Shown: positions 20,296 to 38,721, numbered from the stretch's first letter. The stretch: 52,136 bases of DNA from Euryarchaeota archaeon UBA549 (GCA_002495645.1 DAGF01000067.1:1-52136); one strand, 5' to 3'. Program-made: numbers and translations. The notes: a model not told the origin generated them from the letters alone.

Positions 20296-20904
20296 CCCGT
20301 CGGGAAAGAACCGGTGTTTGAGGTCGCACGCCAGCCATGCGCCGAGGGTGGTTGATGCGACATAGAAGGGCAACGTTGCCCACATACCGTTCAAGAGGTT
20401 GGGCCCCAAGGTGCGAGCAGGGTTCATGCTCGCACCGGTCAACGGTCCTGCGATGAGGGCAAGGAGTGCCACGGTGCCGCCAACCCACAGCGCAATCATC
20501 ACCCTTGAGGAGGAGCGTTGAACGATGAGCAGGATGCTGGCCATCAGGGCGGTCGTGATGGCGACCTCGATACCAAATCCTTCCACCAGCGAGACCGAGG
20601 GCGCAAGCGAAGTTGGGGCGGCCCCGCTGACGATGAGCGCGCCTGCGATACCACCCGCACATTGAGCGACGATGTAGGTGGGGAGCAATCGGCCTTCCAA
20701 TTGCCCGTCTCTCCAAAAAGAGATGCTGACTGCGGGGTTGATGTGGGCACCACTCAGCGGTCCAAAGGCGATGATGGCGAGGGTTACGGCGACACCAAAC
20801 GTCAGCGACACGATGCCGTGGCTGGCGCCAAGCGCAACACTTCCACAGCCCGCAGCAACCATGAAGGCCGTGCCAAAGAACTCGCCAGCGAATTCCTTGC
20901 GCAT
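20281..20904 (-). CDS. aqpM: aquaporin / MIP-family channel
   Basis: It has two NPA boxes (HINPAVS, SMNPART) and six hydrophobic segments. ATG 20904 (MRKEFAGEFFGT) is preferred over the TTG at 20943. The 3' end overlaps the convergent E1 gene by 15 nt. Confidence 0.9.
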   Translation of the reverse strand: MRKEFAGEFFGTAFMVAAGCGSVALGASHGIVSLTFGVAVTLAIIAFGPLSGAHINPAVSISFWRDGQLEGRLLPTYIVAQCAGGIAGALIVSGAAPTSLAPSVSLVEGFGIEVAITTALMASILLIVQRSSSRVMIALWVGGTVALLALIAGPLTGASMNPARTLGPNLLNGMWATLPFYVASTTLGAWLACDLKHRFFPDGSSTD

Positions 20905-21004
20905 GGTGCTGGGCTGTCCTCGGCGGTTCAAAGCCTTCGTCAAGAATGAAGCCGCAGTAATTTAACGAGGTAACCGTCAAGAAGTGGAGGCGAGTCCACA
21001 AGCC

Positions 21005-22135
21005 ATGGGTGAGGAGGCCGCCGCCAAAGAAACCGGCATTCCTCAGCTGGTGTTCAGCAACACCTTGGTTCTCAACGGCGCTCTGTTTCTGGGAATTTTG
21101 GCTCTTCATTCCGTTGTTGAGGATTCTGCCATCAACAACAACTGGCTGTCTTTTGCACTGCTCGCCATGGCACTGGCCTTGCTCATCAAGTCGGCTGATG
21201 TGTTCATTGAAGGGGCCAAAGGTTTGGCTTACCGTGCGGGTTTGCCAGAGGTGGTCATTGGCTTAACCATCGTCTCCATCGGTACATCGCTTCCCGAAAT
21301 TTTAGTCACATCCACGGCAGCAGCCGACATCCCCACAAATCCTGAAATCGGAGATTTGGCCATCGGTGGCATTTACGGCTCAATTCTGGTTCAAATCACT
21401 CTTATTCTCGGCGTGGTTGTTGCCTTCCGCGGCGTGAAGGTTCGGCCGTCGTGGTTGAAGCGAGACGGTTTCATCATGTTCGCCTCCATCGGTTTAGTGA
21501 CCCTCTTCCTGTTCACCGGGGCAGGGTTGAGCCGAATTGAGGGCGCCTTGCTGATGTCGTTGTACATCGCTTACATCTACTGGTTGCTTTCCCACAGGGA
21601 CGAAATCCTCGAGGAAGAATTGAGCGGAGGCGAGCAGGTCGAACGGAAGGTCACTCGGACAACAGCATCCTACGCCTTCATGGTAACCAGCGGCTTGCTG
21701 TTGGCCTTGTTCGCAGCGCACCATTTGGTGAACGTGGCCAGCGATATGGCCTACGCCTTCAATGTCCCCCACGCTGTCATCGGCACAACGGTTTCCGGCC
21801 TTGGGACCTCGTTGCCCGAATTGACCATCGCCTTCCTCGCCGCCAAGCGCAGTCAGGGCGTGGCCATCGGGACCCTCATCGGTTCAAACATCACCGATCC
21901 GCTGCTTTCCATCGGCTTTGCCGCTTTGGTCCACCCGCTCGCTCTGACCTCAGCAAGTTTTGCTTTGACCGCCTATGTCATCATCCCTGCGACCTTTATC
22001 GGAACGGGCGTTGCCCTCTTGATGATGCGCTCGGAGTACGAATTCAAGCGATGGGAAGGCGTCATTCTCATCCTGATTTACATGATTTTCTTGGCCGTCC
22101 TCGCTGCAGAGCACCAAGGCTATCTTGTCCTTTGA
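21005..22135 (+). CDS. Ca2+/cation antiporter (CaCA family, YrbG-like)
   Basis: It has two alpha-repeat signatures, GTSLPEILVT and GTSLPELTIA, and about 10 TM segments. ATG 21005 is preferred over GTG 20984. Confidence 0.85.
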   Translation: MGEEAAAKETGIPQLVFSNTLVLNGALFLGILALHSVVEDSAINNNWLSFALLAMALALLIKSADVFIEGAKGLAYRAGLPEVVIGLTIVSIGTSLPEILVTSTAAADIPTNPEIGDLAIGGIYGSILVQITLILGVVVAFRGVKVRPSWLKRDGFIMFASIGLVTLFLFTGAGLSRIEGALLMSLYIAYIYWLLSHRDEILEEELSGGEQVERKVTRTTASYAFMVTSGLLLALFAAHHLVNVASDMAYAFNVPHAVIGTTVSGLGTSLPELTIAFLAAKRSQGVAIGTLIGSNITDPLLSIGFAALVHPLALTSASFALTAYVIIPATFIGTGVALLMMRSEYEFKRWEGVILILIYMIFLAVLAAEHQGYLVL

Positions 22136-23344: not shown

Positions 23345-24115
23345 TCAGCGACGCCCCTTGCGAAGGTTATCCTCCAGTTGCCAAATGCGGTCCTCGTCGT
23401 GATGCCAAGGTTGTTCCACGTTGCTCACGGCCTTCTCCTCTTGCCGCTCCATCCACGAATCGAGTTGCTTGTTCTCAATCTCCAGTGCAAGATACTCAAA
23501 ATGCAGAGGATCAAACACCTCTAACCAAGGCCAGTCCGGATCCATGTCTTCGACGAAGTCGTACTCTTCGATGTCGTGCTCACCGTATTCATCCATATGG
23601 ACGTCATCTTCCATCACCACACCTTCCTCGCTGAACTGGTAGACCTCCTTGAGCGCGTTTCTCGGGGAGACGATGAATTGAGCCAGCAGGGGAATACGCA
23701 TCGCCGTCGTTTTGTCGTTTTGGAGCGCTAAAGCCAACGCCGCCACCTGGTCACCGATGGGCAAACCTCTGGATTCCGAGCGGGGATTGATGCACAACGA
23801 AACGGCGAACGGATTTCGTTCAATGATGTCGCTTTTCCACGCCGCAGCATGAATGTCAATGTTCCAATGCACTTCTTTCACTTCTCGGTAATCCCCGTCA
23901 ATCTCGATGTAATCCTCAATGTAGGTTACTCTGGTGTTGATGGAGTACCAACGCCTTGAAGCGCCCTGGACGGTGATGGCTGGTAGGGATTGAACGTTTT
24001 CTTTGAGTTCCATTTTCGGTGAACCTGCCACAATTCCCTGAAGAAATTCAATGGAGCGCGCGTAGGCATCTCGATTGGACTTCAGCCAGTGCCCCGGTGG
24101 TTTCCATGTGACCAT
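23345..24115 (-). CDS. hypothetical acidic cytoplasmic protein (256 aa)
   Basis: ATG 24115 (MVTWKPPGHW) avoids overlap with the divergent mocA-like gene. There is no TM segment and no motif I recognise. The C-terminal half is rich in D/E/W/H (DEYGEHDIEEYDFVEDMDPDWPWLEVFDPLHFEY). Confidence 0.5.
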   Translation of the reverse strand: MVTWKPPGHWLKSNRDAYARSIEFLQGIVAGSPKMELKENVQSLPAITVQGASRRWYSINTRVTYIEDYIEIDGDYREVKEVHWNIDIHAAAWKSDIIERNPFAVSLCINPRSESRGLPIGDQVAALALALQNDKTTAMRIPLLAQFIVSPRNALKEVYQFSEEGVVMEDDVHMDEYGEHDIEEYDFVEDMDPDWPWLEVFDPLHFEYLALEIENKQLDSWMERQEEKAVSNVEQPWHHDEDRIWQLEDNLRKGRR

Positions 24116-24191
24116 AGGGGGTTGACAGTTCAAGTGTATATCAAGTTCAAAACAACGCAAACCCAAAGGGGAGAGTGCCTTCCTTTCACCC

Positions 24192-24803
24192 ATGAACACC
24201 GAGGCGGTACCGGCCGTGCTGCTCGCAGCGGGCATGAGCCGCCGCCTCGGTCGTCCAAAGGCCTTGGTTTCGGTGAACGGTCGTACGCTCGTTGAATGGG
24301 CGCACGAGCGGCTTCTGGCAGCGAATTGCACCCCTGTTGTGGTGGTGAACACCGACATTGAATCCGAAATCAAGGCGCTGTTGCCAAACGCCCACATCGT
24401 TGTCAACCCTCAACCGGACTTGGGTCGGACGGGCTCCCTCCAACTCGGCCTGCGCACCGTCGTTCAGGTCCTCGGCTACGAAATTCAGCGTCTGGTGATG
24501 GTTCCCGTCGACCGGCCGTGCTGGAATGTGACCCTTCTGAAGACCCTTCTCGAGCATGAAGGTAACGTCGCTCCTGCACATGATGGCCGAAAGGGCCACC
24601 CTGTGGTGTTGGAGGGCGAAGGTCTCGCGACCGTGAGCCAAGCGCAACAGGACACGCCACTACGCGACCTCGTGCATTTCGCCCCAGTCTCTGTTTTCGC
24701 ACCTTGGCTCAACATGAACATCGACACGCCCGAAGATGTTGACCAATTGCTGGCTGAAGGAGAGCACCTTTCCTCCTGTTTTTCTGAAAGCGAAGGGATA
24801 TGA
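24192..24803 (+). CDS. mocA: MobA-like NTP transferase, probable molybdenum cofactor cytidylyltransferase
   Basis: It has the N-terminal motif AVLLAAGMSRRLGRPKAL and a length of about 200 aa. It lies directly upstream of xdhC and in the same region as the coxSLM-type genes. Confidence 0.75.
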   Translation: MNTEAVPAVLLAAGMSRRLGRPKALVSVNGRTLVEWAHERLLAANCTPVVVVNTDIESEIKALLPNAHIVVNPQPDLGRTGSLQLGLRTVVQVLGYEIQRLVMVPVDRPCWNVTLLKTLLEHEGNVAPAHDGRKGHPVVLEGEGLATVSQAQQDTPLRDLVHFAPVSVFAPWLNMNIDTPEDVDQLLAEGEHLSSCFSESEGI

Positions 24804-24826
24804 GGGCGTCCCGCTGAGGACCCACC

Positions 24827-25699
24827 ATGACCGCTCATGTCCTGCAATGGGTTTTGAGCGAACTCGCCCGTCAACGCAAGGTCGTCATGGCCACGGTGTT
24901 GAACACCTCAGGAAGCGTGCCGGGAAAGACCGGTGCCCGTCTTGCCATGTCGTCGTTCGAGGAAGCATGGACGGGCACGGTGGGCGGCGCTGGTCTTGAA
25001 CACAAGGTGCTGGAACGCTGCCGAGGGCTTCTTCTTGAGTCGCATCAACCCTTTGCGGAGGTGTTGACGTTTGGCTTGAACAAAGGTGCGAAGGGCTATG
25101 AGGTAACACCCCTTGATTCGCTGTGCGGCGGTCGGGTGTCGATCGCTATCGAGGTGATGATTCCAATGCCACACGTTCACATCATGGGCGGCGGTCATTG
25201 CGGTGAGGCCTTGGCCACCACGCTCCACGGGTTGGGTTGGACGTATTCCGTCCACGACACACGGGAAGAATATGTTTCTATAGAAAAATACCCACATGCA
25301 ATTGAGCGTTCATCGGCCGCAATTACCGATTTGTTGAGTGGGGAATCTGCCGAATCACTTGGTCGGTTTTCTGATGTGCTCCTTCTGGGTCATGACTGGT
25401 CCGAAGACCAAGAACGATTGCTTGGACTGCTCCACCTCTTGAACACCCCCGATGCGGAGTTGGACGGCGTGAACGCACCGCGCCTTGGTGTCATCGGGAG
25501 TCGCTCAAAATGGCAGGCATTTGAGAAAACTTGCCTTGATGAGGGGCTGCCTCAATCGCTTTTGGACCAGGTCATTTGCCCGATTGGACTCAACATCGGT
25601 GCTCAATCACCCGAAGAGATTGCAGTGGCGGTGGTCGCTCAAATCATGTCGCTTCACAAAGGGGTTGACCCCAACGAGGCCACGTGGCGTCAGGATTGA
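24827..25699 (+). CDS. xdhC: XdhC/CoxI-family molybdoenzyme maturation factor
   Basis: The N-terminal XdhC/CoxI pattern is VMATVLNTSGSVPGKTGARLA. The second, Rossmann-like domain has HVHIMGGGHCGEALA and ICPIGLNIGAQSPEEIAVAVVAQI. Confidence 0.78.
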   Translation: MTAHVLQWVLSELARQRKVVMATVLNTSGSVPGKTGARLAMSSFEEAWTGTVGGAGLEHKVLERCRGLLLESHQPFAEVLTFGLNKGAKGYEVTPLDSLCGGRVSIAIEVMIPMPHVHIMGGGHCGEALATTLHGLGWTYSVHDTREEYVSIEKYPHAIERSSAAITDLLSGESAESLGRFSDVLLLGHDWSEDQERLLGLLHLLNTPDAELDGVNAPRLGVIGSRSKWQAFEKTCLDEGLPQSLLDQVICPIGLNIGAQSPEEIAVAVVAQIMSLHKGVDPNEATWRQD

Positions 25700-26238
25700 G
25701 GGATGAAGACCTGCTCTCGGAAGTACTTCAACTCCTCAATGGATTCAAGAATGTCATCAAGGGCAAGATGGGCCCCCTTCTTCGGGAATCGGGGAATATC
25801 GGTGTACCATCGCCTGCTCAATTCCTTAACCGTAGAGACATCAATCATTCTGTAGTGGAGGAAATCCAACAATTCTGGCATTTCCTTGGCGAGGAATTGC
25901 CGGTCGTTCCAAACGCTGTTGCCACAAAGGGGGGCTTTGTTTTCATCCACCCATTCTCGGAGGAAGGCGAGGGTGGCTTGTTCGGCTTCTCCTGCGCTGA
26001 CACCCTCCTTGCGGATTCTATCCACCAAGCCACTGCGGTGGTGGTGGGTGGTGTTCCATTCGTCCATGCCATCAATGAGGGATTCTGAAACACTGATGGC
26101 AAGGTTTGGACCTGTGGCGAGGACGTTCAACTCACTGTCGGTGACGACGGTAGCGATTTCGATGATCGATTCTCGTGACACGTCAAGGCCTGTCATCTCA
26201 AGGTCAATCCAGACCATGCGTTGCTCTCGCTTGTCCAT
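25690..26238 (-). CDS. orn: oligoribonuclease (DEDDh 3'-5' exonuclease)
   Basis: It aligns closely with E. coli Orn: MVWIDLEMTGLD, IIEIATVVTD, PLCGNSVWNDRQFL, MPELLDFLHYRMIDVSTVKEL, HLALDDILESIEELKYFRE. Confidence 0.9.
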   Translation of the reverse strand: MDKREQRMVWIDLEMTGLDVSRESIIEIATVVTDSELNVLATGPNLAISVSESLIDGMDEWNTTHHHRSGLVDRIRKEGVSAGEAEQATLAFLREWVDENKAPLCGNSVWNDRQFLAKEMPELLDFLHYRMIDVSTVKELSRRWYTDIPRFPKKGAHLALDDILESIEELKYFREQVFIPQS

Positions 26239-26290
26239 GCCTTATTGGCAAAGGCGGCGGGTCTTGATTCTTCGCCGAAGAACGAGCGAC

Positions 26291-29200
26291 TCACGCGTTT
26301 GAGTTGTCGGTCTCAAACGTCAGCATGATCTGGCCGTTTGGCCCGAAAGCGACGACTGGAACATACCCTTCATGCGGCGTTTGTTCAAGCGAACTGAGAA
26401 TGTTCTGAACGGCATCCTTTGGTAGGCGCAATGCGAAGCCTTCGCCGGTGTCCAAGAGGCCACTGTGGGCTTTCTTCGGCTTGGGGGCTTGAACAGGCTT
26501 CGTTTCCTCGACCTTTTGGTCAACGACTGGTTCGGAGGCCGTCTCTTCTTCCTCATCCTCTGCATCATCAACAAGGTCAATCTCGAGGTCGTCCTCCTCC
26601 TCCACGGCTTCATCAAGCACTTCAAGGTCAGCATCGTCCTCTTCCTCTTCGAGATCCAACGCAGCCAGCTCAGCTTCCAATTCGTCGTCTTCTTCATCAT
26701 CAACCCCTGCATCCAAATCGACCATGGCGGGGATGTTCTTCGGGCCGTCGTCGGTTGAACCTGGATCTTCATATTCAGCCATTTCATAGATGCCGTCTTC
26801 TTCGTTCATGCGCTGCATGAACAAGAATGAGAATCCGAGGGCGACCATGCCCGTTAGAACAATGCCGATGGCGTTGTAGATATCACTCTCGAGCGAATTT
26901 GCGAACAAGAAGGCGGTGAGGATGGAACCGTAGCCCCCCACGCCTCGACGCCATCGAGCGTCGGCTTCGTCGCTGAACCCTTGGATGCCGATAACAACCA
27001 GATAAACCGTGGTCAGCAAGTAGGCAATGGACTCCAAGTTGACGCTGTCGAAAGCAACGAACAAACCGATGATGGTGTAGAGTGCACCGCTGACGCCCAA
27101 GCGGTCCATGAAGGCAAAGAAGGACTCGTCGGAATCCCACTTCAACGCCTTGTAATCGTAAACCATGTCGTCCCTCGCGGAGAGGAGCGAGAGCAGGAGG
27201 CCTTGGACGGCGAGGGTCATTCCGGTGATGGTTTGACGTTGGTCATCCGTGCCGACCTCGGCTTGCACCAGCAAGTTGACGACGCTGAACGTCAAGAGAA
27301 TTGGCAAAGCGATGATGCTGTTCGGACGACCGTCCTTGAGGGCGGAACGTGCCAAGAGGACCAGACCGATCACGGGGCCGATACCAAAGAACACAGAATA
27401 CCCGCCAACATAGCCCAAAGCACCGAGTTGCAGGGCAAGAGAGGCCGTTGAATCAGCGAGGTTGATGTCTTCCTCGGTGGTTGGAGGCGTTCGGAACAAA
27501 ACCCCGCGTTGGTGCATGATGGCCATTGCGCTACCGGTCAATCCCGTGATCATCCCGCTCCAGCCAATGGCATCCGCTTCGGTAATCGGCTGGAAGGTTT
27601 CACTGAGCGAGAACCCGATGTAAAGCGAAACAAAGAGTGCTCCGAGCATGTAAGGGAAGGTTTGGCTGTTGTTGGTGAACCAGAAGTAAGGCAGCAACAC
27701 GAAACAGGCCAAGGTCGGCAGCCAGTAACCGTCGGGTATGGCGCTGAACAAGGCGATAGCCAGCCAAATCCCCATGATGAACATGGTGAAACTCGATTCC
27801 AATTCATCGTCTTCAGAAGTGTAGAGTCGGGACAATCCAAAGAGCATTTGTGTGCCAATGATCAATCCGATGAACGCAGGGAACGGTCCTGCATGGTCGT
27901 CCAAGAGGTATGTTCGCACGCTATCGGGAGCACCCTCCAGCATCGTGTTGAACAAGCCGTGCGAATACCATCCTTGGCCCAAGAACACCAACACCAAGGG
28001 CATCAAGGAAAGCAGGAGGTAGAACTTGAACTGGACAACACGCATCGTCACCAACAGCAGAATCGGCAACAGGAGCAGGCCACCAGATGTATCGAGCATG
28101 GCCAGCAGGAGGAGCATGACATAGGCGACGCCATCGCTCATTCGGTCCAACTCGTTCGTGTCAATTCCGCGCCGAGCGATGACGGTGTTGACGATGATGG
28201 GGGCGCTGACGAGAATCAGGTCCAACAACACGTTTGACATTTGGATGTCGGCCGAAGTGCCCCAGACATTGTCTCCCAGAGCTAGGGAAAGAGGTGCTGC
28301 AATCAGGAGCAGGAGCGTGACGGCCGTGGCCCGAGTTGCCGAGCTGATGCTGGCCATGGCGAGCACTTCTCGGATGAGCATACCAACAGGGATGACCATG
28401 AGCAGAACGAGGGCGGGTTGGTCGGACCAAGTGGAGGCGTTGACATTGCTCACGGAGAAGGTGAACATCATCAATGAAGAGAGGAGGCTGAACCGAGCCA
28501 AAGGCGTAAGTTCGCCATCCTCAATGACTGCATCGAGATCTTTTTCCTTGGGGTCCTGAATTTCCCAAACATTCGTATTAGGATTGTAAATGAGTTCATC
28601 TTGGTTGCCGATGCCGAACCAGTGATAGATGGAACCAACATCAAGTTCCTTGCCTGCTGCTTTTGCTGCGAGGAAGTACAGCACCAGACTCACCACGAAG
28701 AATTGAGGGCGGAGCCCCATCGCGACGATATCATCAAAGACAGAACTCGGTGGGAGTTTGAGGTTGTCCAAGGCGGCGAGAAGCAAAACAGTGACCGATG
28801 TAAATGCGAGTGCGAGCGTGATGTCTTTGCGTTGCTTCATGTTTGGCGAGGGGTACTGAAGCATCATGCTGTAGCTCATGAAGGCCATGTACGCCACCAA
28901 GAGCCAAGGCAAGAACCACTCTGGGTCCAACACGGCTCTGGATAACACAACGGAGCCAAGCATCGCCAAACTGGTGCTCGTCTGGATTTTTCCAGTCCTT
29001 CGTCCGGCCTCGGAGACAGCGACCAAGAAGATGGGGAGCAACACGTGTAGCCACGTTCCACCGTACGTATCTTGGGCGGTCAAATCTGCAGAGATGCCCA
29101 TCCAGTCGGTGATGAGGTACGAGCCACTGAAGGCGAGGATGGTGATGTTGATGACCCACGCCCGAGCAACCTTTGAGATGAACACCATGTAAGGAATCAT

Positions 29201-30415
29201 GATCATACTGAGCACCCAGGGCATGGTGGAGGTTTCAGGTGGCAAGGCCGCAAGGGCGACAGCGAGCCCCACGGGCATCCAAGGCACTCGTTGCTGGAGA
29301 ACGGCCGGGAAATAGGCCAGCAGAACCGTGACCCAAAGCGCCACTGGGATGTTAACATAGGCGGCGAGCTCGGGGTAATCACTTGCTCGGAACGGCCCGA
29401 GAATGAGGTTGAAATCAGGTTCAGTCCGGGCTAGCGCAATCGCTACGACCACGGTGCCGATGAGGACGGCTGATGCTCGTTCCATGACTTCCTTTCGAAG
29501 GTCTTGCCGGGAGGCGTAGTAGCCTTGCAGGGCGATGATGAACACCATCAGGGAAAGTGCTCCACCCATGCCGTCATCGGGGGCGTTGGTGTTCAACACC
29601 TCGTAGATGATGGGGACGATGCATGCCGCAACAGCGACCACGACAAAATTGAGGGCCCGGTTTGAACGCAGGGCCATCTCCATCGATACAAAGGAAATCA
29701 AGACGATGGCAAGGCCAAGTTCCCAACTGACTACACTTTCAGACCAGCGAATCCACGGGCCGACGCCAGCGATGAGCACGGCCATGGGAGCGTAGGTGGC
29801 GACGCCCCAGCCGAAACTCGTATCACCGCTGTATCGCCTGAGGAGAAGGAAGTGGCCGAAGGTCAACAGAAGGCAGGTGGCTGTTTGGGCGTAAATGCCG
29901 TTGGCATTTGGGGACCAATCCACTTCGGTGTAAGCATCGGGTGAACCAAACCAATCCAATTCGAGTGTTCCCGTGGCGTAACCCATCATGAATCGGGTGC
30001 CCCATAGCACACCGACCGTTGAGAAGAAAAAGGCAATGCCGAGGAAATAATTCTGAATGTCCTTGAGCCTGTACCCGTTCTTCTTTGATTGAAGTTCAAT
30101 CAATCCGATTGAAACCAAGAAGGATGCCAAACCACCCACGAAGAGCACCAAAAAGTTCTGATTGGTGGCGTCTTCGTCGAAAGCGACGCTAAATACACCT
30201 CCCCAGATGGCCAAGAAACCGATGCCCATCATGACGATTTGTGAGAGTTTCATCAAGAACAGGTCGTCTCGATTCATGGATTGATTGGGTTTGACCAATG
30301 TGATGCTTTCTTGGGGTGCATCAACGCCTTCAACCACGCCTCCAACGAATCCGGAGGAAGGGGTTGGTTGTGCTCGTGGTCGTACTGGGGCGACTCTTCT
30401 CTTTGGTGCTGCCAT
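26291..30415 (-). CDS. giant polytopic membrane protein (1374 aa, roughly 35 hydrophobic segments) with acidic C-terminal region; function unknown
   Basis: This is a long uninterrupted ORF. It has a basic N-terminus (MAAPKRRVAPVRPRAQ), then hydrophobic segments with short loops through about residue 1150. An approximately 150-aa D/E-rich tract follows (DDEEDDELEAELAALDLEEEEDDADLEVLDEAVEEEDD). The protein ends in a ~65-aa globular-looking segment (GFALRLPKDAVQNILSSLEQTPHEGYVPVVAFGPNGQIMLTFE). Confidence 0.85.
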   Translation of the reverse strand: MAAPKRRVAPVRPRAQPTPSSGFVGGVVEGVDAPQESITLVKPNQSMNRDDLFLMKLSQIVMMGIGFLAIWGGVFSVAFDEDATNQNFLVLFVGGLASFLVSIGLIELQSKKNGYRLKDIQNYFLGIAFFFSTVGVLWGTRFMMGYATGTLELDWFGSPDAYTEVDWSPNANGIYAQTATCLLLTFGHFLLLRRYSGDTSFGWGVATYAPMAVLIAGVGPWIRWSESVVSWELGLAIVLISFVSMEMALRSNRALNFVVVAVAACIVPIIYEVLNTNAPDDGMGGALSLMVFIIALQGYYASRQDLRKEVMERASAVLIGTVVVAIALARTEPDFNLILGPFRASDYPELAAYVNIPVALWVTVLLAYFPAVLQQRVPWMPVGLAVALAALPPETSTMPWVLSMIMIPYMVFISKVARAWVINITILAFSGSYLITDWMGISADLTAQDTYGGTWLHVLLPIFLVAVSEAGRRTGKIQTSTSLAMLGSVVLSRAVLDPEWFLPWLLVAYMAFMSYSMMLQYPSPNMKQRKDITLALAFTSVTVLLLAALDNLKLPPSSVFDDIVAMGLRPQFFVVSLVLYFLAAKAAGKELDVGSIYHWFGIGNQDELIYNPNTNVWEIQDPKEKDLDAVIEDGELTPLARFSLLSSLMMFTFSVSNVNASTWSDQPALVLLMVIPVGMLIREVLAMASISSATRATAVTLLLLIAAPLSLALGDNVWGTSADIQMSNVLLDLILVSAPIIVNTVIARRGIDTNELDRMSDGVAYVMLLLLAMLDTSGGLLLLPILLLVTMRVVQFKFYLLLSLMPLVLVFLGQGWYSHGLFNTMLEGAPDSVRTYLLDDHAGPFPAFIGLIIGTQMLFGLSRLYTSEDDELESSFTMFIMGIWLAIALFSAIPDGYWLPTLACFVLLPYFWFTNNSQTFPYMLGALFVSLYIGFSLSETFQPITEADAIGWSGMITGLTGSAMAIMHQRGVLFRTPPTTEEDINLADSTASLALQLGALGYVGGYSVFFGIGPVIGLVLLARSALKDGRPNSIIALPILLTFSVVNLLVQAEVGTDDQRQTITGMTLAVQGLLLSLLSARDDMVYDYKALKWDSDESFFAFMDRLGVSGALYTIIGLFVAFDSVNLESIAYLLTTVYLVVIGIQGFSDEADARWRRGVGGYGSILTAFLFANSLESDIYNAIGIVLTGMVALGFSFLFMQRMNEEDGIYEMAEYEDPGSTDDGPKNIPAMVDLDAGVDDEEDDELEAELAALDLEEEEDDADLEVLDEAVEEEDDLEIDLVDDAEDEEEETASEPVVDQKVEETKPVQAPKPKKAHSGLLDTGEGFALRLPKDAVQNILSSLEQTPHEGYVPVVAFGPNGQIMLTFETDNSNA

Positions 30416-30572
30416 GTGAATCAGTCTAAAAATCGTCAGTCTACACTTAATATTTCACCCGCGAACCCCTGCGAGAACCCCAAGTTGAGTGCGATTCCTA
30501 GAAGGCGGAGGCTAACACGGTTACAATGACTTGAAAACCTGCCAATGGCTGGGGTGAAGTGAGGAGAATTTT

Positions 30573-32561
30573 ATGAAACGCTCGTTGCTCTGTGTGTTTT
30601 GCTTTTTCTTGATGCTCGCACCCGCTTTTGCCATGGCGATGCCGGTGCAATCTTCGGTCGAAGAACCGGTGGAAGATGGCTGGTGGATTGACACATCCCT
30701 TGATCGAAATCAGAACAATATCGGCGATATGGTTGAAAAATATCACGATCATCCGCTTTTCCTTGATGAGGACAACACACTTCCCCTCATCATTGACTTT
30801 GACCATACGCCTACCGACGGCGATGTGGCCATGCTTGAACGAGAGGTCGGATACGTCCACCAGTGGAACCTACCTCGCATCGATGCCGTGGCGGGTCGTG
30901 TTCCCCACGCCATGATTCTCGAGACCACGACGCTGCCCGGAGTGGTTATGCTCGAACTTGACGGCATCCTCCAGGTGCAAAACGGTGATGCAGCCGTCGT
31001 GCACGAGGTTGACCTTGCTCAACAGCAAACAGGGTACGACGGCTCCGGCGTCAGTGTTGCAGTCATTGATACGGGCATCGACAGCCTCCACGTTGGGCTT
31101 GACGACCACGACGATGACAACAGCACCCACGATCCGAAGGTGATTGCGTTTTATGATCCCGTGAACAACCCTGACAAAACCAACGGCACTGAAATCCAAG
31201 CCTACGATGACCAAGGCCACGGAACACATTGTGCGGGAACCGTTGCAGGAACGGGCGCACCCACCTTCGAACACCCGGGAATGGCTCCACAAGCCAATCT
31301 TGTCGGCGTGAAAGTGTTGGATTCCGGTGGTTCGGGAAGTTTCTCTGTCGTGATGGCCGGAATGGAGTGGACCGTTGAAAATCGGTACAAATTCAACATC
31401 CGTGCTGCATCCATGAGTCTTGGAGGGCCGGGGCCAATAGAGTGGACGTCGTCTGAAGAAGACAGCGTCAACCGCTATGCTAACGAGATGGTCCGAGCGG
31501 GTATTAGTATGCTCATTGCCGCTGGAAATTCGGCAGCCCCAGGCACCATTGGAACGCCCGGTGGCGCAGAAGATGTCATTACAGTCGGAGCACTCAACAA
31601 AAACACGGCCATTGCAGAATACAGTAGTGAGGGGCCAACCGAAGAAGGCCGAGTGAAACCCAATGTGGCCTTCGTCGGTTCGGATGTGATGTCTGCTCAA
31701 CACAACTCGGGTGATGGATATGTTGCCTTCAGCGGCACCAGCATGGCGACACCGGGTGTTGCGGGGACCGTTGCCTTGATGTTGCAGGCAAATCCTGACT
31801 TATCGCCCTTTGATGTGCGAAACATTCTCCAAGAAACAGCCACATATCGAGAGTGCCACTACATGGCTGCCAATCAACCGTGTGCCGAAGATTTGATTCC
31901 AAAGAATCGGCAAAACAATGTTTACGGCCACGGACACGTAGAGGCACTGGCTGCGGTCATGGAAGCGGCCCAACGGGACTATCAACTCGACACCTCAATC
32001 TCCATCACCATCACCACTGAGGCAGGAATCGACGATCGCATCCACCTCATGCCAGGCGATGCAATCGAGGTTGACCTGAGCGGAGATGTTGATACTTTCC
32101 AGTGGCGCAGTAATCATCTGCGTGATGACTGGGCAAATCTCCACACCTTTGACGAAGGCGATGAGAAAGCTACACTTGATTTGACCACCATCGTTAACCA
32201 ACTTGAGCATCTTCCGGGAATCGAAGTTGAAGGCAATCACACCCTCTCTCTGCGAGGTTTAATCGCCAATGAGAGCGATGGACATTCTTCCTCGGCCCTC
32301 GTATCCGTGAATGTGATGCTGATGGACACGGCCAATGCGAAATCCTATGGCGAGAACAGCGGTGATGGTTTGTTTGGCGACCTCCCCACATGGGTTGGTC
32401 CCGTTGTCATCCTCTTCCTCGTGGCTTTGGTTATCTTTGGGATGATCCTCATCAACAAGGTCGAGGACGCTGCAGAGGTTGAGGTCTTGGACTGGTCAAA
32501 ACCAGATGAGGACATTGATGCCGTTGTTGTTGGGCATCTTGAAGCCGAAATTTTGGATTGA
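30573..32561 (+). CDS. subtilisin-like S8 serine protease, secreted, C-terminally membrane-anchored
   Basis: The catalytic triad motifs are VAVIDTGID (Asp), HGTHCAGTVAG (His) and GTSMATPGVAG (Ser). It has an N-terminal signal peptide and a C-terminal TM, VGPVVILFLVALVIFGMILI. A GAGGAG run lies upstream of the ATG. Confidence 0.92.
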   Translation: MKRSLLCVFCFFLMLAPAFAMAMPVQSSVEEPVEDGWWIDTSLDRNQNNIGDMVEKYHDHPLFLDEDNTLPLIIDFDHTPTDGDVAMLEREVGYVHQWNLPRIDAVAGRVPHAMILETTTLPGVVMLELDGILQVQNGDAAVVHEVDLAQQQTGYDGSGVSVAVIDTGIDSLHVGLDDHDDDNSTHDPKVIAFYDPVNNPDKTNGTEIQAYDDQGHGTHCAGTVAGTGAPTFEHPGMAPQANLVGVKVLDSGGSGSFSVVMAGMEWTVENRYKFNIRAASMSLGGPGPIEWTSSEEDSVNRYANEMVRAGISMLIAAGNSAAPGTIGTPGGAEDVITVGALNKNTAIAEYSSEGPTEEGRVKPNVAFVGSDVMSAQHNSGDGYVAFSGTSMATPGVAGTVALMLQANPDLSPFDVRNILQETATYRECHYMAANQPCAEDLIPKNRQNNVYGHGHVEALAAVMEAAQRDYQLDTSISITITTEAGIDDRIHLMPGDAIEVDLSGDVDTFQWRSNHLRDDWANLHTFDEGDEKATLDLTTIVNQLEHLPGIEVEGNHTLSLRGLIANESDGHSSSALVSVNVMLMDTANAKSYGENSGDGLFGDLPTWVGPVVILFLVALVIFGMILINKVEDAAEVEVLDWSKPDEDIDAVVVGHLEAEILD

Positions 32562-32566
32562 AGTGG

Positions 32567-33100
32567 TCAAGCTGCTGCACTGGCTTCGTTCCACTTTTCA
32601 AGAATCGTGGCACTGTCGTCCATGCGCCCTTCGTGTAGGTAGGTGATTTCACCTGCTCCGTTCACAAAGGCAAGCGAGCCTGGTCGAGTGATGTCCAATG
32701 CCGTCGTGACATCGCTTCCTTTCATGAAGGCATAAGTGGTCAGTTCGACCCTTGTATCACCCTCTTCGTCGTCATGGGCGTTGGCCGAGTCATGCCATTC
32801 ACTCAAACTCAATCCGCCTGCATTTTCTGCAGGATCGGTGGACATAACCAAGACAGGAAGTTCAGGTTGTGTTTCCCAAATTGCATGCATGGTTGTGAAA
32901 CAGGGGTTGTTGCACCATTCAGCGGAGAAGATCACAATGAAGGCATTTCCCGACATACGCTCGTTGTCGTATGTTTGGTTGTCATCAGCAACCTCTGAGA
33001 AGTTAGGAAACACCAGTGTTTTTTCCTCCTCTTCGCCTGTGCAACCCGTCAGCGGGGCAGCGATGAGAAGGATGAGAATCAGCGCGTGTATTTTGGCCAT
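32567..33100 (-). CDS. thioredoxin-fold (TlpA/redoxin-like) lipoprotein with atypical WCNNPC motif
   Basis: ATG 33100 gives MAKIHALILILLIAAPLTGC, a signal peptide plus lipobox. FIVIFSAEWCNNPCFTTM occupies the position of the FWASWCxxC redoxin motif. Confidence 0.6.
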   Translation of the reverse strand: MAKIHALILILLIAAPLTGCTGEEEEKTLVFPNFSEVADDNQTYDNERMSGNAFIVIFSAEWCNNPCFTTMHAIWETQPELPVLVMSTDPAENAGGLSLSEWHDSANAHDDEEGDTRVELTTYAFMKGSDVTTALDITRPGSLAFVNGAGEITYLHEGRMDDSATILEKWNEASAAA

Positions 33101-33225
33101 GGAGTTCTTACATGTCCGTTGCTTATTCAAACCTTGCTCCCGCCGTCAGTTGGAGCGCTTATTTTGCATAACCGGTGAAAAAAGGGGGGAACAAAAGCCA
33201 TTAGTCTAGCCAAGATAGGGGACTC

Positions 33226-34287
33226 ATGAATGCATTGGGCCGAGGCATCATTCTTTTGCTTGCTTTGATTTTACTCGCCCCAGTTTCGGCTCAGTCCGGT
33301 GACTCAACAACATGCGTATCCGGAACGTCTACTGAGGACAGGCAGGGTTGTTTGGATTCGGACGGCGATGGATGGTCGGACCCCGATGAAGATTGGAACG
33401 AGAGCATGGGTGCCGACGCCTTCCCCGACAACGCTTCCGAACATAGGGACCTTGATGGTGATGGACTCGGGGATGTCGCCGACCCTGACATGGACAATGA
33501 CGGTGCATTGGATGAGGTGGATGTGTGGCCCGAGATTCCTGAACTTTGGTCCGACATCGACGGCGATGGCTACGCTGACCAAGGGCTTCATCCGATGAGC
33601 GATAATTGCCCGAACATCTACGGAAAGAGCAAGATTCGATTGAAGGGTTGTTCGGACATCGACGGCGATTTCGTACCAGATGAATACGACGATGACGCTG
33701 ACGGTGACGGTATTCGAAACGAGATGGAACGTTCTGCATCATCCGGGACCATTCTCTACGACCCTTACAATCCGGATTCCACGCCCCCAGATGCAGACCA
33801 AGACACCATTCCAGATGTGCTTGATTCCGACAACGACAACGATGGATGGCCCGATTACATTGAAATCGACCGAGGGTCAAACATCTACGACGATGAGGAA
33901 ACGCCATTTACGATGTACTTTGGCTCAAACACCGGCATTTTCTACACGGGCGGTCTTGGTCCAGGTTCGTTCAGTTTTGAGTACGATTCAGATTACACAG
34001 AACTCTCGGTTTCCGTGATCAGTGAAATCGTGTTTGAAGAACTGGTCATTCCGCTCCTTTTGGTCCCAATTTATTTCGCTGTCTTTCTCTCGCGCCGTCG
34101 TGAATTCGGTCGTCTTCTCAGGGAGATTGATGCTGCAAAAACCATTGATGTTTTGCGTGATATTGAGGCCGAGGTCAACGAAGCGGTCAAGCAGCGCAGC
34201 ATCAAGGTCTACCACGGACTGGTGTTGAGGAACGCGATTGAACTCAACGAAGCCGAGTTCAACGGAGAGTGCATTGAAGAGGAATAA
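33226..34287 (+). CDS. secreted Ca-binding protein with thrombospondin-type-3-like DxDxDG repeats and a C-terminal TM plus cytoplasmic helical tail
   Basis: It has a signal peptide (LLALILLAPVSAQ). The repeats are DSDGDGWSDPDED, DLDGDGLGDVADPDMDNDGALDEVD, DIDGDGYAD, DIDGDFVPDEYDDDADGDGIRNE and DSDNDNDGWPDYIE. The TM segment is LVIPLLLVPIYFAVFL. Confidence 0.78.
   Translation: MNALGRGIILLLALILLAPVSAQSGDSTTCVSGTSTEDRQGCLDSDGDGWSDPDEDWNESMGADAFPDNASEHRDLDGDGLGDVADPDMDNDGALDEVDVWPEIPELWSDIDGDGYADQGLHPMSDNCPNIYGKSKIRLKGCSDIDGDFVPDEYDDDADGDGIRNEMERSASSGTILYDPYNPDSTPPDADQDTIPDVLDSDNDNDGWPDYIEIDRGSNIYDDEETPFTMYFGSNTGIFYTGGLGPGSFSFEYDSDYTELSVSVISEIVFEELVIPLLLVPIYFAVFLSRRREFGRLLREIDAAKTIDVLRDIEAEVNEAVKQRSIKVYHGLVLRNAIELNEAEFNGECIEEE
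33355..33870 (+). repeat. array of degenerate DxDxDG Ca-binding (TSP3-like) repeats within the CDS
   Basis: At least five Asp-rich loops are read in the translation, at residues ~44-215 of the 33226 gene. Confidence 0.7.
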
Positions 34288-34319: not shown

Positions 34320-34949
34320 ATGGACTACGGCAAGGCAGGGACGACCATGGTGGGCGATGAGCATGTTTCGATGATTCCTGCGCCCGAAGGAAAACGGTGG
34401 TCCGCCACCGTCAACGGTCAGCCATACGAGGTCCTCGCGCCAAGCAACGCTGTCCTGCTCGATGTGCTACGAGACAAGGTGGGTACGCTTGGCGTGAAGC
34501 GGGGATGTGATTTGGGAACGTGCGGTTGTTGCACCGTGATGATTGACGGGGTTCCAAAATTGTCTTGCCTCACCCTTGCGGGACAAGTTCAGGGCGCCGA
34601 TATCATCACGGTTGAGGGTCTTTCAGACGGTGCACATCTCGCTCCAATCCAAACGTGTTTTGCCACCCACGGTGGTTCCCAGTGCGGCTTTTGCACACCT
34701 GGTTTCTTGGTCGCCTCGCAGGCTTTGCTCAACGAGAACGACAACCCGAGCCGAGAGGAAATTGCCTGCGCGATTGAAGGCAATCTCTGCCGTTGCACTG
34801 GTTATCAACAAATCATCGACTCCATCGAGGCCGCCGCTGCCATTCACCGGGGGGACGTTGCCGCACCTGCGCCTGCAAGCGACCCCCATCCCGACCCACA
34901 CCCCTCCGGTCCAGAGGAGCCCACGATGCCGCCCGGCCATGCGAAGTGA
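34320..34949 (+). CDS. molybdenum hydroxylase small subunit, [2Fe-2S]-binding (CoxS/XdhC-iron-sulfur type)
   Basis: It has two Fe-S cysteine clusters: GCDLGTCGCCTV, then CGFCTPGF and CRCTGY. A Pro-rich C-terminal tail follows (PAPASDPHPDPHPSGPEEP). Confidence 0.9.
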   Translation: MDYGKAGTTMVGDEHVSMIPAPEGKRWSATVNGQPYEVLAPSNAVLLDVLRDKVGTLGVKRGCDLGTCGCCTVMIDGVPKLSCLTLAGQVQGADIITVEGLSDGAHLAPIQTCFATHGGSQCGFCTPGFLVASQALLNENDNPSREEIACAIEGNLCRCTGYQQIIDSIEAAAAIHRGDVAAPAPASDPHPDPHPSGPEEPTMPPGHAK

Positions 34950-34954
34950 TCATC

Positions 34955-37756: not shown

Positions 37757-38721
37757 TGCTGATGCCTCCGTTTGAACTCCATCACCCTTCCACGGTTGAC
37801 GAAGCTGTTGAACTCGCTGCGTCCCTCATGGCCAAGAATGAGGTCTTTGACTGGGTCGCTGGCGGAACGGACGTCCTTCCGAATTACAAGTGGCGCATCA
37901 ATCCAAAGCCGCACGTGATTTCACTTGCCGGTATTGAGGAGGCTCACGCCCTCTCTTCACGAGAACTCGGTTGCATGGTGCCCCTTTCCTCGCTGACCAC
38001 CGAGAATGACGTTCATCCCTTGCTGGTGCAGGCCGCCTCAAAAGTGGCCTCTTCCTTGATTCGCAAGAGCGCTACCGTGGGCGGTAACCTCTGCTTGGAC
38101 ACCCGGTGTTTCTGGTACAACCAAAGCGAAGATTGGCGCCGTTCCATCGATTGGTGTCACAAAGCCGACTGCGGAACCGGCGCAGATTGTCGGGTCATCC
38201 CCAATCAGAACACCCTTTGCGTAGCGACCTACCAAGGCGATTTGGCGCCCAATTTCATGGTGCTTGACGCCTCGGTGGTGCTCATCGGTCCAGAGGGTGA
38301 ACGCACCATGCCACTCGTTGATTTCTACGAATTGGACGGCATGAAGAAAAACGTGCTGAAGACGGGTGAATTCCTTCTCAAGGTCGTGCTACCAGAAGAG
38401 GCTGCTCAACGGAAAGGGTGCTATCAAAAACTCAGGGTTCGAGATTCGTGGGATTTCCCAGAGGCTGGTGTGGCCGCATCATGGGTGCCAGGCGACGGCT
38501 CGAGCCTGCTGGTGGCGAGCACTGCGCTCGAATCCATTCCCCGCTTGCACACCGAACAAGTCGAAGAGCACCTTGCAGCGGGCGACCTTGATCCACTCGC
38601 ACTGGCAAAAATCGTTCAAAAATCGGTGAAACCGGTCAACAACACAGCGCTCCCACCTCGTTACCGCCGAGCGATGGTGAAGACATTGACCAAACGAGCC
38701 CTCTTGGGTATTCTTGAGTGA
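37756..38721 (+). CDS. molybdenum hydroxylase FAD-binding medium subunit (CoxM/XdhB-like)
   Basis: The N-terminus FELHHPSTVDEAVELAA...WVAGGTDVLPNYK is typical of the FAD-binding subunit, and ATVGGNLC is also present. The ATG overlaps the large-subunit stop (TGATG). Confidence 0.8.
   Translation: MLMPPFELHHPSTVDEAVELAASLMAKNEVFDWVAGGTDVLPNYKWRINPKPHVISLAGIEEAHALSSRELGCMVPLSSLTTENDVHPLLVQAASKVASSLIRKSATVGGNLCLDTRCFWYNQSEDWRRSIDWCHKADCGTGADCRVIPNQNTLCVATYQGDLAPNFMVLDASVVLIGPEGERTMPLVDFYELDGMKKNVLKTGEFLLKVVLPEEAAQRKGCYQKLRVRDSWDFPEAGVAASWVPGDGSSLLVASTALESIPRLHTEQVEEHLAAGDLDPLALAKIVQKSVKPVNNTALPPRYRRAMVKTLTKRALLGILE

What the first reader, a model, noticed from the sequence alone, without database searches (positions are those of the whole stretch)
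26291..30415. Orphan 1374-aa membrane protein with about 35 hydrophobic segments and a poly-acidic C-terminal arm
Reading the translation, I count roughly 35 hydrophobic stretches of TM length, separated mostly by short loops. Very few loops are long enough to form soluble domains; the largest, ~70 aa, is near GKELDVGSIYHWFGIGNQDELIYNPNTNVWEIQDPKEKDLD. I see no transporter signature, no oligosaccharyltransferase WWDxG motif and no obvious internal duplication. After the last TM, a ~150-aa D/E-rich arm leads to a short globular-looking end (GFALRLPKDAVQNILSSLEQTPHEGYVPVVAFGPNGQIMLTFE). A basic N-terminus with an acidic C-terminal arm on the cytoplasmic side suggests a scaffold or tether rather than a classical transporter. 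It is one of the largest genes in the window and has no assignable function. It is divergent from the S8 protease gene.
Basis: partly seen in the sequence, partly recalled or inferred. Interest (0 to 1): 0.65.

Follow-up and report, generated by a model that had tools for sequence, protein, structure and literature searches.

The report
Giant 38-helix archaeal membrane protein
This is a real, strongly conserved 1374-residue protein that crosses the membrane about 38 times, is found only in the abundant ocean archaea called Marine Group II (Poseidoniales), resembles no known protein family or solved structure, and has no known function.

Summary
The ORF at 26291-30415 (-) is intact and under strong purifying selection (dN/dS about 0.07). 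It is full-length in more than 130 protein clusters and in 160 GTDB species genomes. All are Poseidoniales (Poseidoniaceae and Thalassarchaeaceae), so it is not an orphan.

- There are about 38 membrane helices. AlphaFold2 gives pLDDT 85.7 and pTM 0.73.
- The positive-inside signal is very strong (K+R 41 against 9), which puts both termini in the cytoplasm.
- There is one 55-residue cytoplasmic loop.
- A flexible, acidic linker of about 115 residues leads to a conserved 51-residue beta-beta-alpha-beta-beta end domain.

Nothing known matches: Pfam, NCBIfam, PDB sequence profiles, Foldseek against PDB and BFVD, and internal-repeat searches all found nothing.

Function is inferred only. Invariant charged residues inside helices (R141, E246, D437, E469, D732, D1104), broken helices, and helices more conserved than loops favour an active intramembrane machine with a tethered cytoplasmic module. 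They argue against an inert scaffold.

The gene sits in an order-wide syntenic block, between a membrane-anchored S8 protease plus molybdenum-hydroxylase genes and XdhC.

This is a new family and probably a new fold. Its mechanism is unresolved.

The parts
26291..30415 (-). Whole gene, 1374 codons plus stop. A Poseidoniales-specific giant polytopic membrane protein.
   Evidence: intact ORF; full-length homologues; dN/dS about 0.07.
30272..30415 (-). N-terminal basic, probably disordered cytoplasmic segment (residues 1-48; MAAPKRRVAPVRPR...).
   Evidence: sequence; 5.5 K+R on average; pLDDT below 50 for model residues 1-20. The N-terminal motif MxAPxR is conserved in homologues, which supports the ATG at 30415 over the downstream GTG used in some annotations (1348 aa).
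26795..30271 (-). Membrane domain, residues 49-1207: 38 predicted transmembrane helices with N-in/C-in topology.
   Evidence: AF2 pLDDT 85.7, pTM 0.73, 38 long helices; hydropathy; positive-inside rule.
28856..30271 (-). Most conserved N-terminal module (residues 49-520, helices 1-16). It is the only part that distant Thalassarchaeaceae members match strongly.
   Evidence: block conservation 0.60-0.71 here against 0.42-0.58 elsewhere; distant members align to profile positions about 40-500.
28493..28657 (-). Largest loop (residues 587-641), cytoplasmic, with a beta-hairpin and invariant E590, W617 and R641.
28220..28222 (-). Codon of D732, an invariant aspartate inside helix 22. It is one example of the conserved intramembrane charged residues (R141, E246, D437, E469, D732, D1104).
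26462..26794 (-). Flexible acidic linker (residues 1208-1318; 48 D/E and 6 K/R in 115 aa). Its length and acidity vary among homologues.
   Evidence: low pLDDT in the part that was modelled.
26309..26461 (-). C-terminal mini-domain (residues 1319-1369), beta-beta-alpha-beta-beta, with the near-invariant TPHEG loop. It is family-specific.
   Evidence: alignment; AF2; no PDB match; found only at the end of this family's proteins; present even in distant members.
30416..30572 (.). 157-bp divergent intergenic region shared with the S8 protease gene (47% GC against about 55% in the flanks).
   Evidence: The adjacency is conserved in 61 of 64 related loci that have enough upstream DNA.
30573..32561 (+). 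Context: divergent neighbour, an S8 subtilase with a signal peptide and a C-terminal membrane anchor.
   Evidence: Peptidase_S8, E = 2e-55; sequence.

Best explanation
The gene encodes a lineage-specific integral membrane protein of Marine Group II archaea (order Poseidoniales). About 1160 residues form 38 transmembrane helices with very short outer loops. The N-terminus, one 55-residue loop, a flexible acidic linker and a small beta-beta-alpha-beta-beta end domain all lie in the cytoplasm.

Shown here: the architecture, the topology, conservation and purifying selection, restriction to one archaeal order, and the absence of any detectable relative among described families or solved structures.

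Inferred: the membrane body is a working intramembrane machine. Most likely it moves an ion or a small or lipidic substrate across or within the membrane, or catalyses a reaction at the membrane interface, using its buried invariant acidic, basic and polar residues. The tethered end domain would act as a cytoplasmic regulatory or partner-binding module, either docking back onto the basic cytoplasmic face or recruiting another protein.

I put about 0.9 on the structural description and about 0.4 on the 'active machine with tethered regulatory module' reading.
For: Real, selected gene:
- Intact ORF.
- dN/dS 0.06-0.08, similar to the neighbouring housekeeping genes.
- Same length and architecture in more than 130 clusters and 160 GTDB species representatives.

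Architecture:
- AF2 gives pLDDT 85.7, pTM 0.73 and 38 helices.
- K+R is 40.9 against 8.8 between alternating loop sets (p = 3e-6).

Signs of an active role:
- Invariant or nearly invariant charged and polar residues within helices: R141, E246, D437, E469, D732, N1047, D1104.
- Many invariant Pro and Gly residues.
- Four helices with breaks.
- Helices are more conserved (0.59) than loops (0.50).

Tethered module:
- The 51-aa end domain is conserved across the whole family, including members at about 20% identity.
- The linker varies in length (72-152 aa) and in acidity, which is typical of a flexible tether.
- The domain occurs nowhere else.

No relatives: Pfam, NCBIfam and PDB profile searches are negative. 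Foldseek against PDB and BFVD finds no match at E <= 1e-3.
Against: - There is no homology or fold match to any transporter, channel or enzyme.
- There are no inverted or tandem internal repeats of the kind most transporters show.
- No conserved His or Cys is available for cofactors.
- At deep divergence the protein has changed more than its neighbours: 34-38% identity against 62-72% for the S8, RNase T and XdhC genes. This would also fit a structural or surface-exposed role.
- I could not inspect the model's coordinates, so no cavity or pore has been seen.
- The docking or regulatory role of the end domain is pure inference.
Confidence: 0.4

Rival explanations
1. Passive membrane scaffold or tether. 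The 38-helix body would organise or shape the membrane of these archaea, and the acidic arm with its end domain would hold a cytoplasmic partner at the membrane.
For: - There are no soluble catalytic domains, and almost all of the mass is in the bilayer.
- The only Foldseek matches, all non-significant, are elongated alpha-solenoids.
- The protein diverges faster than its neighbours at long range.
- It has a flexible linker plus a small conserved binding-type domain.
Against: - Invariant buried Asp, Glu and Arg residues and strongly conserved helices are unusual for a passive scaffold.
- dN/dS is as low as for enzymes.
- No partner gene is consistently adjacent across both families.
Confidence: 0.25
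2. Membrane partner of the neighbouring molybdenum hydroxylase (xanthine or CO-dehydrogenase family). The giant protein would dock the soluble Fer2/MoCoBD/FAD enzyme at the membrane through its cytoplasmic arm or domain.
For: - In Poseidoniaceae the gene lies within about 4-6 kb of the Fer2-MoCoBD-FAD genes on one side and XdhC plus a MobA-like gene on the other. This holds in 61 of 64 loci.
- In a Thalassarchaeaceae locus it sits directly between Fer2-MoCoBD-FAD and XdhC, without the S8 or RNase T genes.
- From my own knowledge, not tested here: cox clusters of carboxidotrophs also include polytopic membrane proteins.
Against: - The whole block, including the acyl-CoA dehydrogenase, the Na/Ca exchanger and MIP, is syntenic, so adjacency may simply be inherited gene order.
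- Other family members sit in unrelated contexts.
- There is no conserved His, Cys or Met for haem or Fe-S, and no quinone-site signature.
- The genes are on different strands, so they are not in one operon.
Confidence: 0.1
3. Envelope-biogenesis enzyme acting at the outer membrane face. This would be a GT-C-like glycosyltransferase, a polymerase or ligase, or a factor that handles the co-located membrane-anchored S8 protease.
For: - Invariant motifs cluster at the outer interface: DWxPNANGIY, NAPxxGxGGALSL, LDxSGG and R141.
- The divergent pairing with an exported, membrane-anchored S8 protease is conserved in Poseidoniaceae, and the two genes are tandem in L006.
Against: - There is no extracytoplasmic domain and no WWDxG motif.
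- No GT-C or STT3 Pfam hit was found in 42 members.
- No Foldseek hit to PglB, AglB, ArnT, Emb or PMT structures appears among the 50 matches listed.
- The S8 adjacency is lost in Thalassarchaeaceae.
Confidence: 0.1
4. Artefact: a fusion of several genes through sequencing or assembly errors, or a non-coding ORF.
For: None found. One long-read contig (L006) shows the opposite kind of error, a 1-nt frameshift that splits off the end domain.
Against: - More than 100 independent assemblies carry full-length ORFs of 1220-1460 aa.
- There is purifying selection along the whole length.
- A single confident AF2 model spans the region.
Confidence: 0.01

Closest known systems
Piezo mechanosensitive channels (eukaryotes)
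   Same: Both have a very large number of membrane helices. By my recollection Piezo has 38 per subunit, the same count as here. In both proteins the termini are cytoplasmic, most of the mass is in the bilayer, and sequence repeats are hard to detect.
   Different: - No Piezo chain appears among the 50 Foldseek matches listed, and no match reaches E <= 1e-3.
- The PDB sequence-profile search gives no Piezo hit.
- There is no extracellular cap or large loops, and the protein is about half the size.
- No 4-helix repeat is detectable.
- The resemblance is numerical only.
DUF2339 (PF10101) and other large uncharacterised polytopic families
   Same: These are long, many-helix prokaryotic membrane proteins without soluble domains and of unknown function.
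   Different: No Pfam model, including DUF2339, matches any of 35 plus 7 family members, even at E <= 5 and E <= 0.1 respectively. The distribution here is restricted to one archaeal order.
Mrp / complex-I antiporter-like subunits (NuoL/M/N, MrpA/D)
   Same: Both are large helical membrane modules with functionally essential charged residues buried in helices, and with broken helices. Mrp is reported absent from Poseidoniales (PMC9258230).
   Different: There is no Proton_antipo_M or related Pfam hit. No Foldseek hit to complex I or Mrp structures appears among the 50 matches listed. There is no internal 5-helix inverted repeat. The conserved buried residues here are Asp, Glu and Arg, whereas in that family (by my recollection) they are Lys and Glu.
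AbrB/SpoVT/MazE swapped-hairpin domains and ribbon-helix-helix domains (compared with the 51-aa end domain only)
   Same: Similar size. The beta-beta-alpha-beta-beta order is that of an AbrB-type monomer (the fold order is from my own knowledge). The 'F-x-[LIV]-R-L-P-x-D' strand-to-helix motif resembles the N-terminus of RHH proteins; the weak hit is AmrZ at E = 0.63.
   Different: There is no significant sequence or fold match. The domain is tethered to a membrane protein rather than forming part of a DNA-binding dimer. The family signature is the TPHEG loop.

Membership tests
Oligosaccharyltransferase STT3/AglB and GT-C glycosyltransferases | WWDxG (or WWDYG) motif and a C-terminal extracytoplasmic domain | tested here: not met
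   There is no WWD or WW in the sequence. The outer loops are 7-37 aa only.
Oligosaccharyltransferase STT3/AglB and GT-C glycosyltransferases | Profile or fold similarity to the GT-C core | tested here: not met
   Pfam is negative for 42 members. No GT-C chain appears among the 50 Foldseek PDB matches listed, and no match reaches E <= 1e-3.
DUF2339 (PF10101) | Match to the Pfam model | tested here: not met
   hmmscan of 35 members at E <= 5 lists 15 spurious families, none of them DUF2339.
Piezo | About 38 TM helices with cytoplasmic termini | tested here: met
   38 helices, N-in/C-in. The Piezo count is from my own knowledge.
Piezo | Blade of repeated 4-helix units plus a C-terminal pore module with an extracellular cap; fold similarity | tested here: not met
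   No repeats by hhalign. There is no extracellular domain. No Piezo chain is among the Foldseek matches listed.
Piezo | Trimeric, curved assembly | not testable with these tools
   No multimer prediction was available and the model's coordinates could not be accessed.
Secondary transporter superfamilies (MFS, APC/LeuT, RND, DMT, antiporter-like) | Profile match, or the characteristic internal inverted or tandem repeat | tested here: not met
   Pfam, NCBIfam and PDB profile searches are negative. The maximum hhalign self-match probability is 22%. Foldseek is negative.
AbrB/SpoVT swapped-hairpin (end domain) | beta-beta-alpha-beta-beta monomer of about 50 aa | tested here: met
   AF2 secondary structure: E26-28, E34-36, H39-51, E57-63, E69-75.
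AbrB/SpoVT swapped-hairpin (end domain) | Sequence or fold match to family members; dimeric interleaved barrel | tested here: not met
   No PF04014 hit. No AbrB or MazE chain is among the Foldseek or PDB profile matches listed. Dimerisation could not be tested.
New Poseidoniales giant membrane protein family (proposed here) | A body of about 1150-1200 aa with 38 helices, then a variable linker and a C-terminal mini-domain with the TPH-x-G loop | tested here: met

The most novel reading that the evidence does not exclude
This is a previously undescribed membrane-protein fold: 38 non-repetitive helices in one chain. It would be a core, order-specific invention of Marine Group II archaea with a new kind of function. 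One possibility is a translocation or membrane-remodelling machine gated by its own tethered 'ball-and-chain' cytoplasmic domain. Another is the missing membrane dock for the adjacent molybdenum hydroxylase.
Probability: 0.3. Interest if true: 0.8.

Novelty: categorically new. Interest (0 to 1): 0.6.

Why it matters
Marine Group II archaea are among the most abundant archaea in the surface ocean and have never been cultured, so their envelope and membrane biology is largely unknown. Here a roughly 4-kb gene is conserved across the whole order, is under strong purifying selection, is predicted with high confidence, and has no detectable relative in any family or structure library searched. That makes it a clear 'dark matter' target. 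It could reveal a new membrane fold and a lineage-defining membrane function. It is also a clean marker gene for Poseidoniales. The predicted topology, the invariant buried residues and the separable end domain give concrete handles for heterologous expression, cryo-EM and mutagenesis.

Tried and rejected
1. Pfam and NCBIfam on the window protein, on 35 diverse members and on 7 distant members gave nothing consistent.
2. PDB sequence-profile searches with the full alignment and with the end-domain alignment gave only low-complexity acidic matches, plus a 19-residue AmrZ match at E = 0.63.
3. Foldseek of the 1189-residue model against PDB and BFVD gave only non-significant soluble alpha-solenoid, tape-measure-like matches with TM-score <= 0.25. 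Foldseek of the end domain against PDB gave nothing below E = 0.5.
4. An internal-repeat search by hhalign on 160-aa chunks reached at most 22% probability.
5. I looked for the end domain in other proteins. All 24 hits are fragments of this family. They arise from contig-end gene calls (for example L007) or from a frameshift in a long-read contig (L006). They are not free-standing paralogues.
6. I looked for a conserved adjacent partner shared by the two families. The genes flanking the P0116 locus are unrelated to the 455-aa neighbour in Poseidoniaceae.
7. An iterated search starting from distant members, intended to leave the order, returned only Thalassarchaeaceae proteins.
8. The literature searches found no description of this protein.
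9. I considered coevolution (DCA) to obtain helix contacts and rejected it. There are only about 100 effective sequences for about 1150 positions.
Full report
**Observation.** The window carries an uninterrupted ORF at 26291..30415 on the minus strand, with an ATG start and 1374 codons. The window is about 55% GC with no compositional break at the gene. Some public annotations start 26 codons downstream, giving 1348 aa. The N-terminal MxAPxR motif is conserved in distant homologues, which supports the upstream ATG.

**Organism and distribution.**
- A search of 5.8 billion proteins returned 137 clusters. Essentially all are 1220-1460 aa and full-length, and the only names given are 'hypothetical protein'. 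The sources are Euryarchaeota, Candidatus Poseidonia and Poseidoniaceae.
- A profile of the membrane region was read against 1.84 billion cluster representatives. It found only 195 proteins at E <= 1e-3. All 150 that were listed are full-length members or fragments of this family.
- The most distant full-length members (1218-1270 aa, one of 1812 aa) come from Thalassarchaeaceae or 'Thermoplasmatota archaeon' MAGs.
- Iterating from those distant members found only more Thalassarchaeaceae proteins.
- In one-genome-per-species GTDB contigs, 160 stretches encode a relative. The 80 that were fetched are all Poseidoniales-type MAGs, apart from two evidently mis-binned contigs.
- The protein is therefore not an orphan. 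It is an order-wide, order-restricted family of unknown function.

**Reality of the gene.** Against close relatives (L008, L046, L014, L010, L026), dN/dS is 0.057-0.081 over 1351-1374 aligned codons (about 1350-1374). The neighbouring RNase T, XdhC and S8 genes fall in the same range. Together with the many independent full-length assemblies, this rules out a fusion artefact. The only disruption I saw is the reverse kind. In a long-read contig (L006) a 1-nt frameshift in the linker splits off the last 73 codons.

**Anatomy.**
- Hydropathy averaged over 35 homologues gives 36-38 hydrophobic segments.
- AlphaFold2 on residues 27-1215 with a 108-sequence alignment gave mean pLDDT 85.7 and pTM 0.73. 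It predicts 38 long helices, and four of them have a break.
- I treated these 38 helices as alternating membrane crossings. The loops on the N-terminal side then carry 40.9 K+R on average over homologues, and the other side carries 8.8. Total loop lengths are nearly equal (280 and 286 residues). The alternation holds loop by loop (Mann-Whitney p = 3e-6).
- The topology is therefore N-in/C-in. The outer loops are short (7-37 aa), acidic and almost free of Lys and Arg.
- The largest loop, residues 587-641, is cytoplasmic. It contains a beta-hairpin and the invariant residues E590, W617 and R641.
- After helix 38 comes a 115-residue linker with 48 D/E and 6 K/R. In homologues this linker is 72-152 residues long with 13-42% D/E. 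Flexibility is the conserved property, not acidity.
- The last 51 residues form a mini-domain predicted as beta-beta-alpha-beta-beta, with pLDDT about 85 over the domain. It carries a near-invariant T-P-H-x-G loop and is recognisable even in members at about 20% identity.
- A profile of this mini-domain finds it nowhere except at the C-terminus of this family. There is no second copy in the window or in 89 related loci.

**Conservation pattern.**
- Helices are more conserved than loops: mean column identity 0.59 against 0.50.
- The N-terminal 16 helices (residues about 50-520) are the most conserved part. They are also the part that distant members match.
- Invariant or near-invariant charged and polar residues lie within helices: R141, E246, D437, E469, D732, N1047, D1104 and Q59/Q177. 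There are also many invariant Gly, Pro and Trp residues.
- Conserved interface motifs occur on both faces. Outside: DWxPNANGIY, NAPxxGxGGALSL and LDxSGG. Inside: QxRVPWMPIGLA, ISSxTR, KRGID and DARWRRGxGGYGS.
- The membrane part has only 6 His and 3 Cys, and none is conserved. A haem, Fe-S or metal site is therefore unlikely.

**Comparison with what is known.**
- Pfam and NCBIfam give nothing for the window protein, for 35 diverse members at E <= 5, or for 7 distant members.
- PDB sequence-profile searches give only acidic low-complexity matches.
- Foldseek of the confident model finds no match at E <= 1e-3 in 350,542 PDB chains. The listed matches are soluble alpha-solenoids with TM-scores <= 0.25. 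No transporter-superfamily, GT-C, Piezo, complex-I or Mrp chain appears among the 50 matches shown; the only membrane proteins there are a few ABC transporters at probability below 0.1.
- BFVD is also negative.
- There is no detectable internal duplication and no WWDxG motif.
- The end domain has no significant PDB neighbour. Its strand order recalls an AbrB-type hairpin monomer, and its F-x-hydrophobic-R-L-P motif recalls ribbon-helix-helix N-termini. Both are resemblances only.
- The helix count equals that of Piezo as I recall it, but every testable Piezo feature beyond the count fails.
- AlphaFold DB could not be searched, so 'new fold' remains provisional.

**Genomic context.**
- The gene is divergent from an S8 subtilase, with a 157-bp spacer. 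The subtilase has a signal peptide and a C-terminal membrane anchor.
- Downstream on the same strand is an RNase T-type exonuclease. Next come XdhC, a MobA-like nucleotidyltransferase, an acyl-CoA dehydrogenase and a Na/Ca exchanger. On the other side, beyond S8, lie a 187-aa ORF, a TSP3-repeat protein, and the Fer2/MoCoBD/FAD subunits of a molybdenum hydroxylase.
- This arrangement is conserved. Of 64 related loci with at least 5.5 kb of upstream DNA, 61 have S8, Fer2 and MoCoBD upstream.
- In one lineage S8 is in tandem with the giant gene.
- In a Thalassarchaeaceae locus the giant gene lies directly between Fer2-MoCoBD-FAD and XdhC, with no S8 or RNase T gene.
- Other Thalassarchaeaceae-type members sit in unrelated contexts.
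- Because the entire block is syntenic, adjacency is weak functional evidence. I keep the Mo-hydroxylase and S8 links as low-probability rivals.
- At deep divergence the giant protein has changed more than its neighbours: 34-38% identity against 62-72%. Short-range dN/dS is nevertheless equally low.

**Mechanism.**
- Shown: a 38-helix N-in/C-in membrane body, and a cytoplasmic flexible linker ending in a conserved mini-domain.
- Inferred: the buried invariant charges, the broken helices and the higher conservation of helices point to a protein that does work in the membrane. That work could be translocation of an ion, a small molecule or a lipid, or interfacial catalysis. An inert scaffold seems less likely.
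- Inferred: the tethered end domain most plausibly regulates the body or binds a cytoplasmic partner. The cytoplasmic face is strongly basic and the linker in this genus is strongly acidic, so a 'ball-and-chain' docking arrangement is conceivable.
- I rate the machine reading at about 0.4, a passive scaffold or tether at about 0.25, a Mo-hydroxylase dock at about 0.1, an envelope-biogenesis enzyme at about 0.1, and an artefact at 0.01 or less. The rest is unassigned.

**Verdict.** The topology and the lack of any known signature hold. Scaffold against transporter remains open, and the evidence leans mildly towards an active role. The family appears to be new at both the sequence level and the predicted-fold level, and it is confined to an ecologically dominant, uncultured archaeal order. 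Interest is 0.6: it is high as a structural and functional dark-matter target, but tempered by the absence of any direct functional evidence.

Noticed in passing
window 24192-25699 and 34320-38721; locus L089 3481-12747: The genes of a molybdenum hydroxylase are split around the giant gene. The Fer2_2 small subunit, the MoCoBD large subunit and the FAD_binding_5 subunit lie on one side. The maturation genes XdhC and a MobA-like NTP_transf_3 gene lie on the other. The same split occurs in a Thalassarchaeaceae locus, where the giant gene is the only gene in between.
   Followed up: partly
L003 12217-13596, L005 12105-13472 (absent from the window at 26238-26291): Many Poseidoniaceae carry an extra convergent gene of about 455-460 aa, with only faint S8-like similarity, between the giant gene and the RNase T gene. 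In the window the two genes are only 52 bp apart and this gene is missing.
   Followed up: no
L009 (NZEQ01000021.1) and L086 (CAXQWT010000088.1): Two public MAGs are labelled Verrucomicrobiales bacterium and Salipiger bermudensis. Both carry contigs with the complete Poseidoniales syntenic block (giant gene, S8, RNase T). This most likely reflects mis-binned archaeal contigs in bacterial bins.
   Followed up: no
L006 5990-6010: In a pilon-polished long-read contig the giant gene is split by a 1-nt frameshift inside the acidic linker. The result is a 1295-aa ORF plus a 73-aa ORF that carries the end domain. A homopolymer or indel error is the probable cause, but a natural split was not excluded.
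   Followed up: partly
L006 106-6007: In this lineage the S8 protease gene lies upstream on the same strand as the giant gene, 67 bp away. Elsewhere the two are divergent. The pair has therefore stayed together through an inversion.
   Followed up: no
window 30573-32561: The S8 subtilase has a signal peptide, a C-terminal transmembrane anchor and a short acidic cytoplasmic tail. It is therefore an externally displayed, membrane-anchored protease.
   Followed up: partly
window 23345-24406 (-), 32567-33130 (-), 38731-39675 (+), 20267-21109 (-): Four further ORFs of 187-353 aa have no Pfam match. The 187-aa ORF and the adjacent TSP3-repeat protein (33226-34287) are conserved next to S8 only in the Poseidonia-like subset of loci.
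   Followed up: no
L058 and L059 (MAG SI034_bin128): One MAG holds two contigs, each with a copy of the giant gene plus S8 at similar identity to the window (37-38%). This could be strain heterogeneity within the bin or a true duplication.
   Followed up: no
P0157 (1812 aa, Logan contig of 23 kb): One distant family member is about 450-550 residues longer than all the others and has no Pfam domain in the extra part. The nature of the extension was not examined.
   Followed up: no
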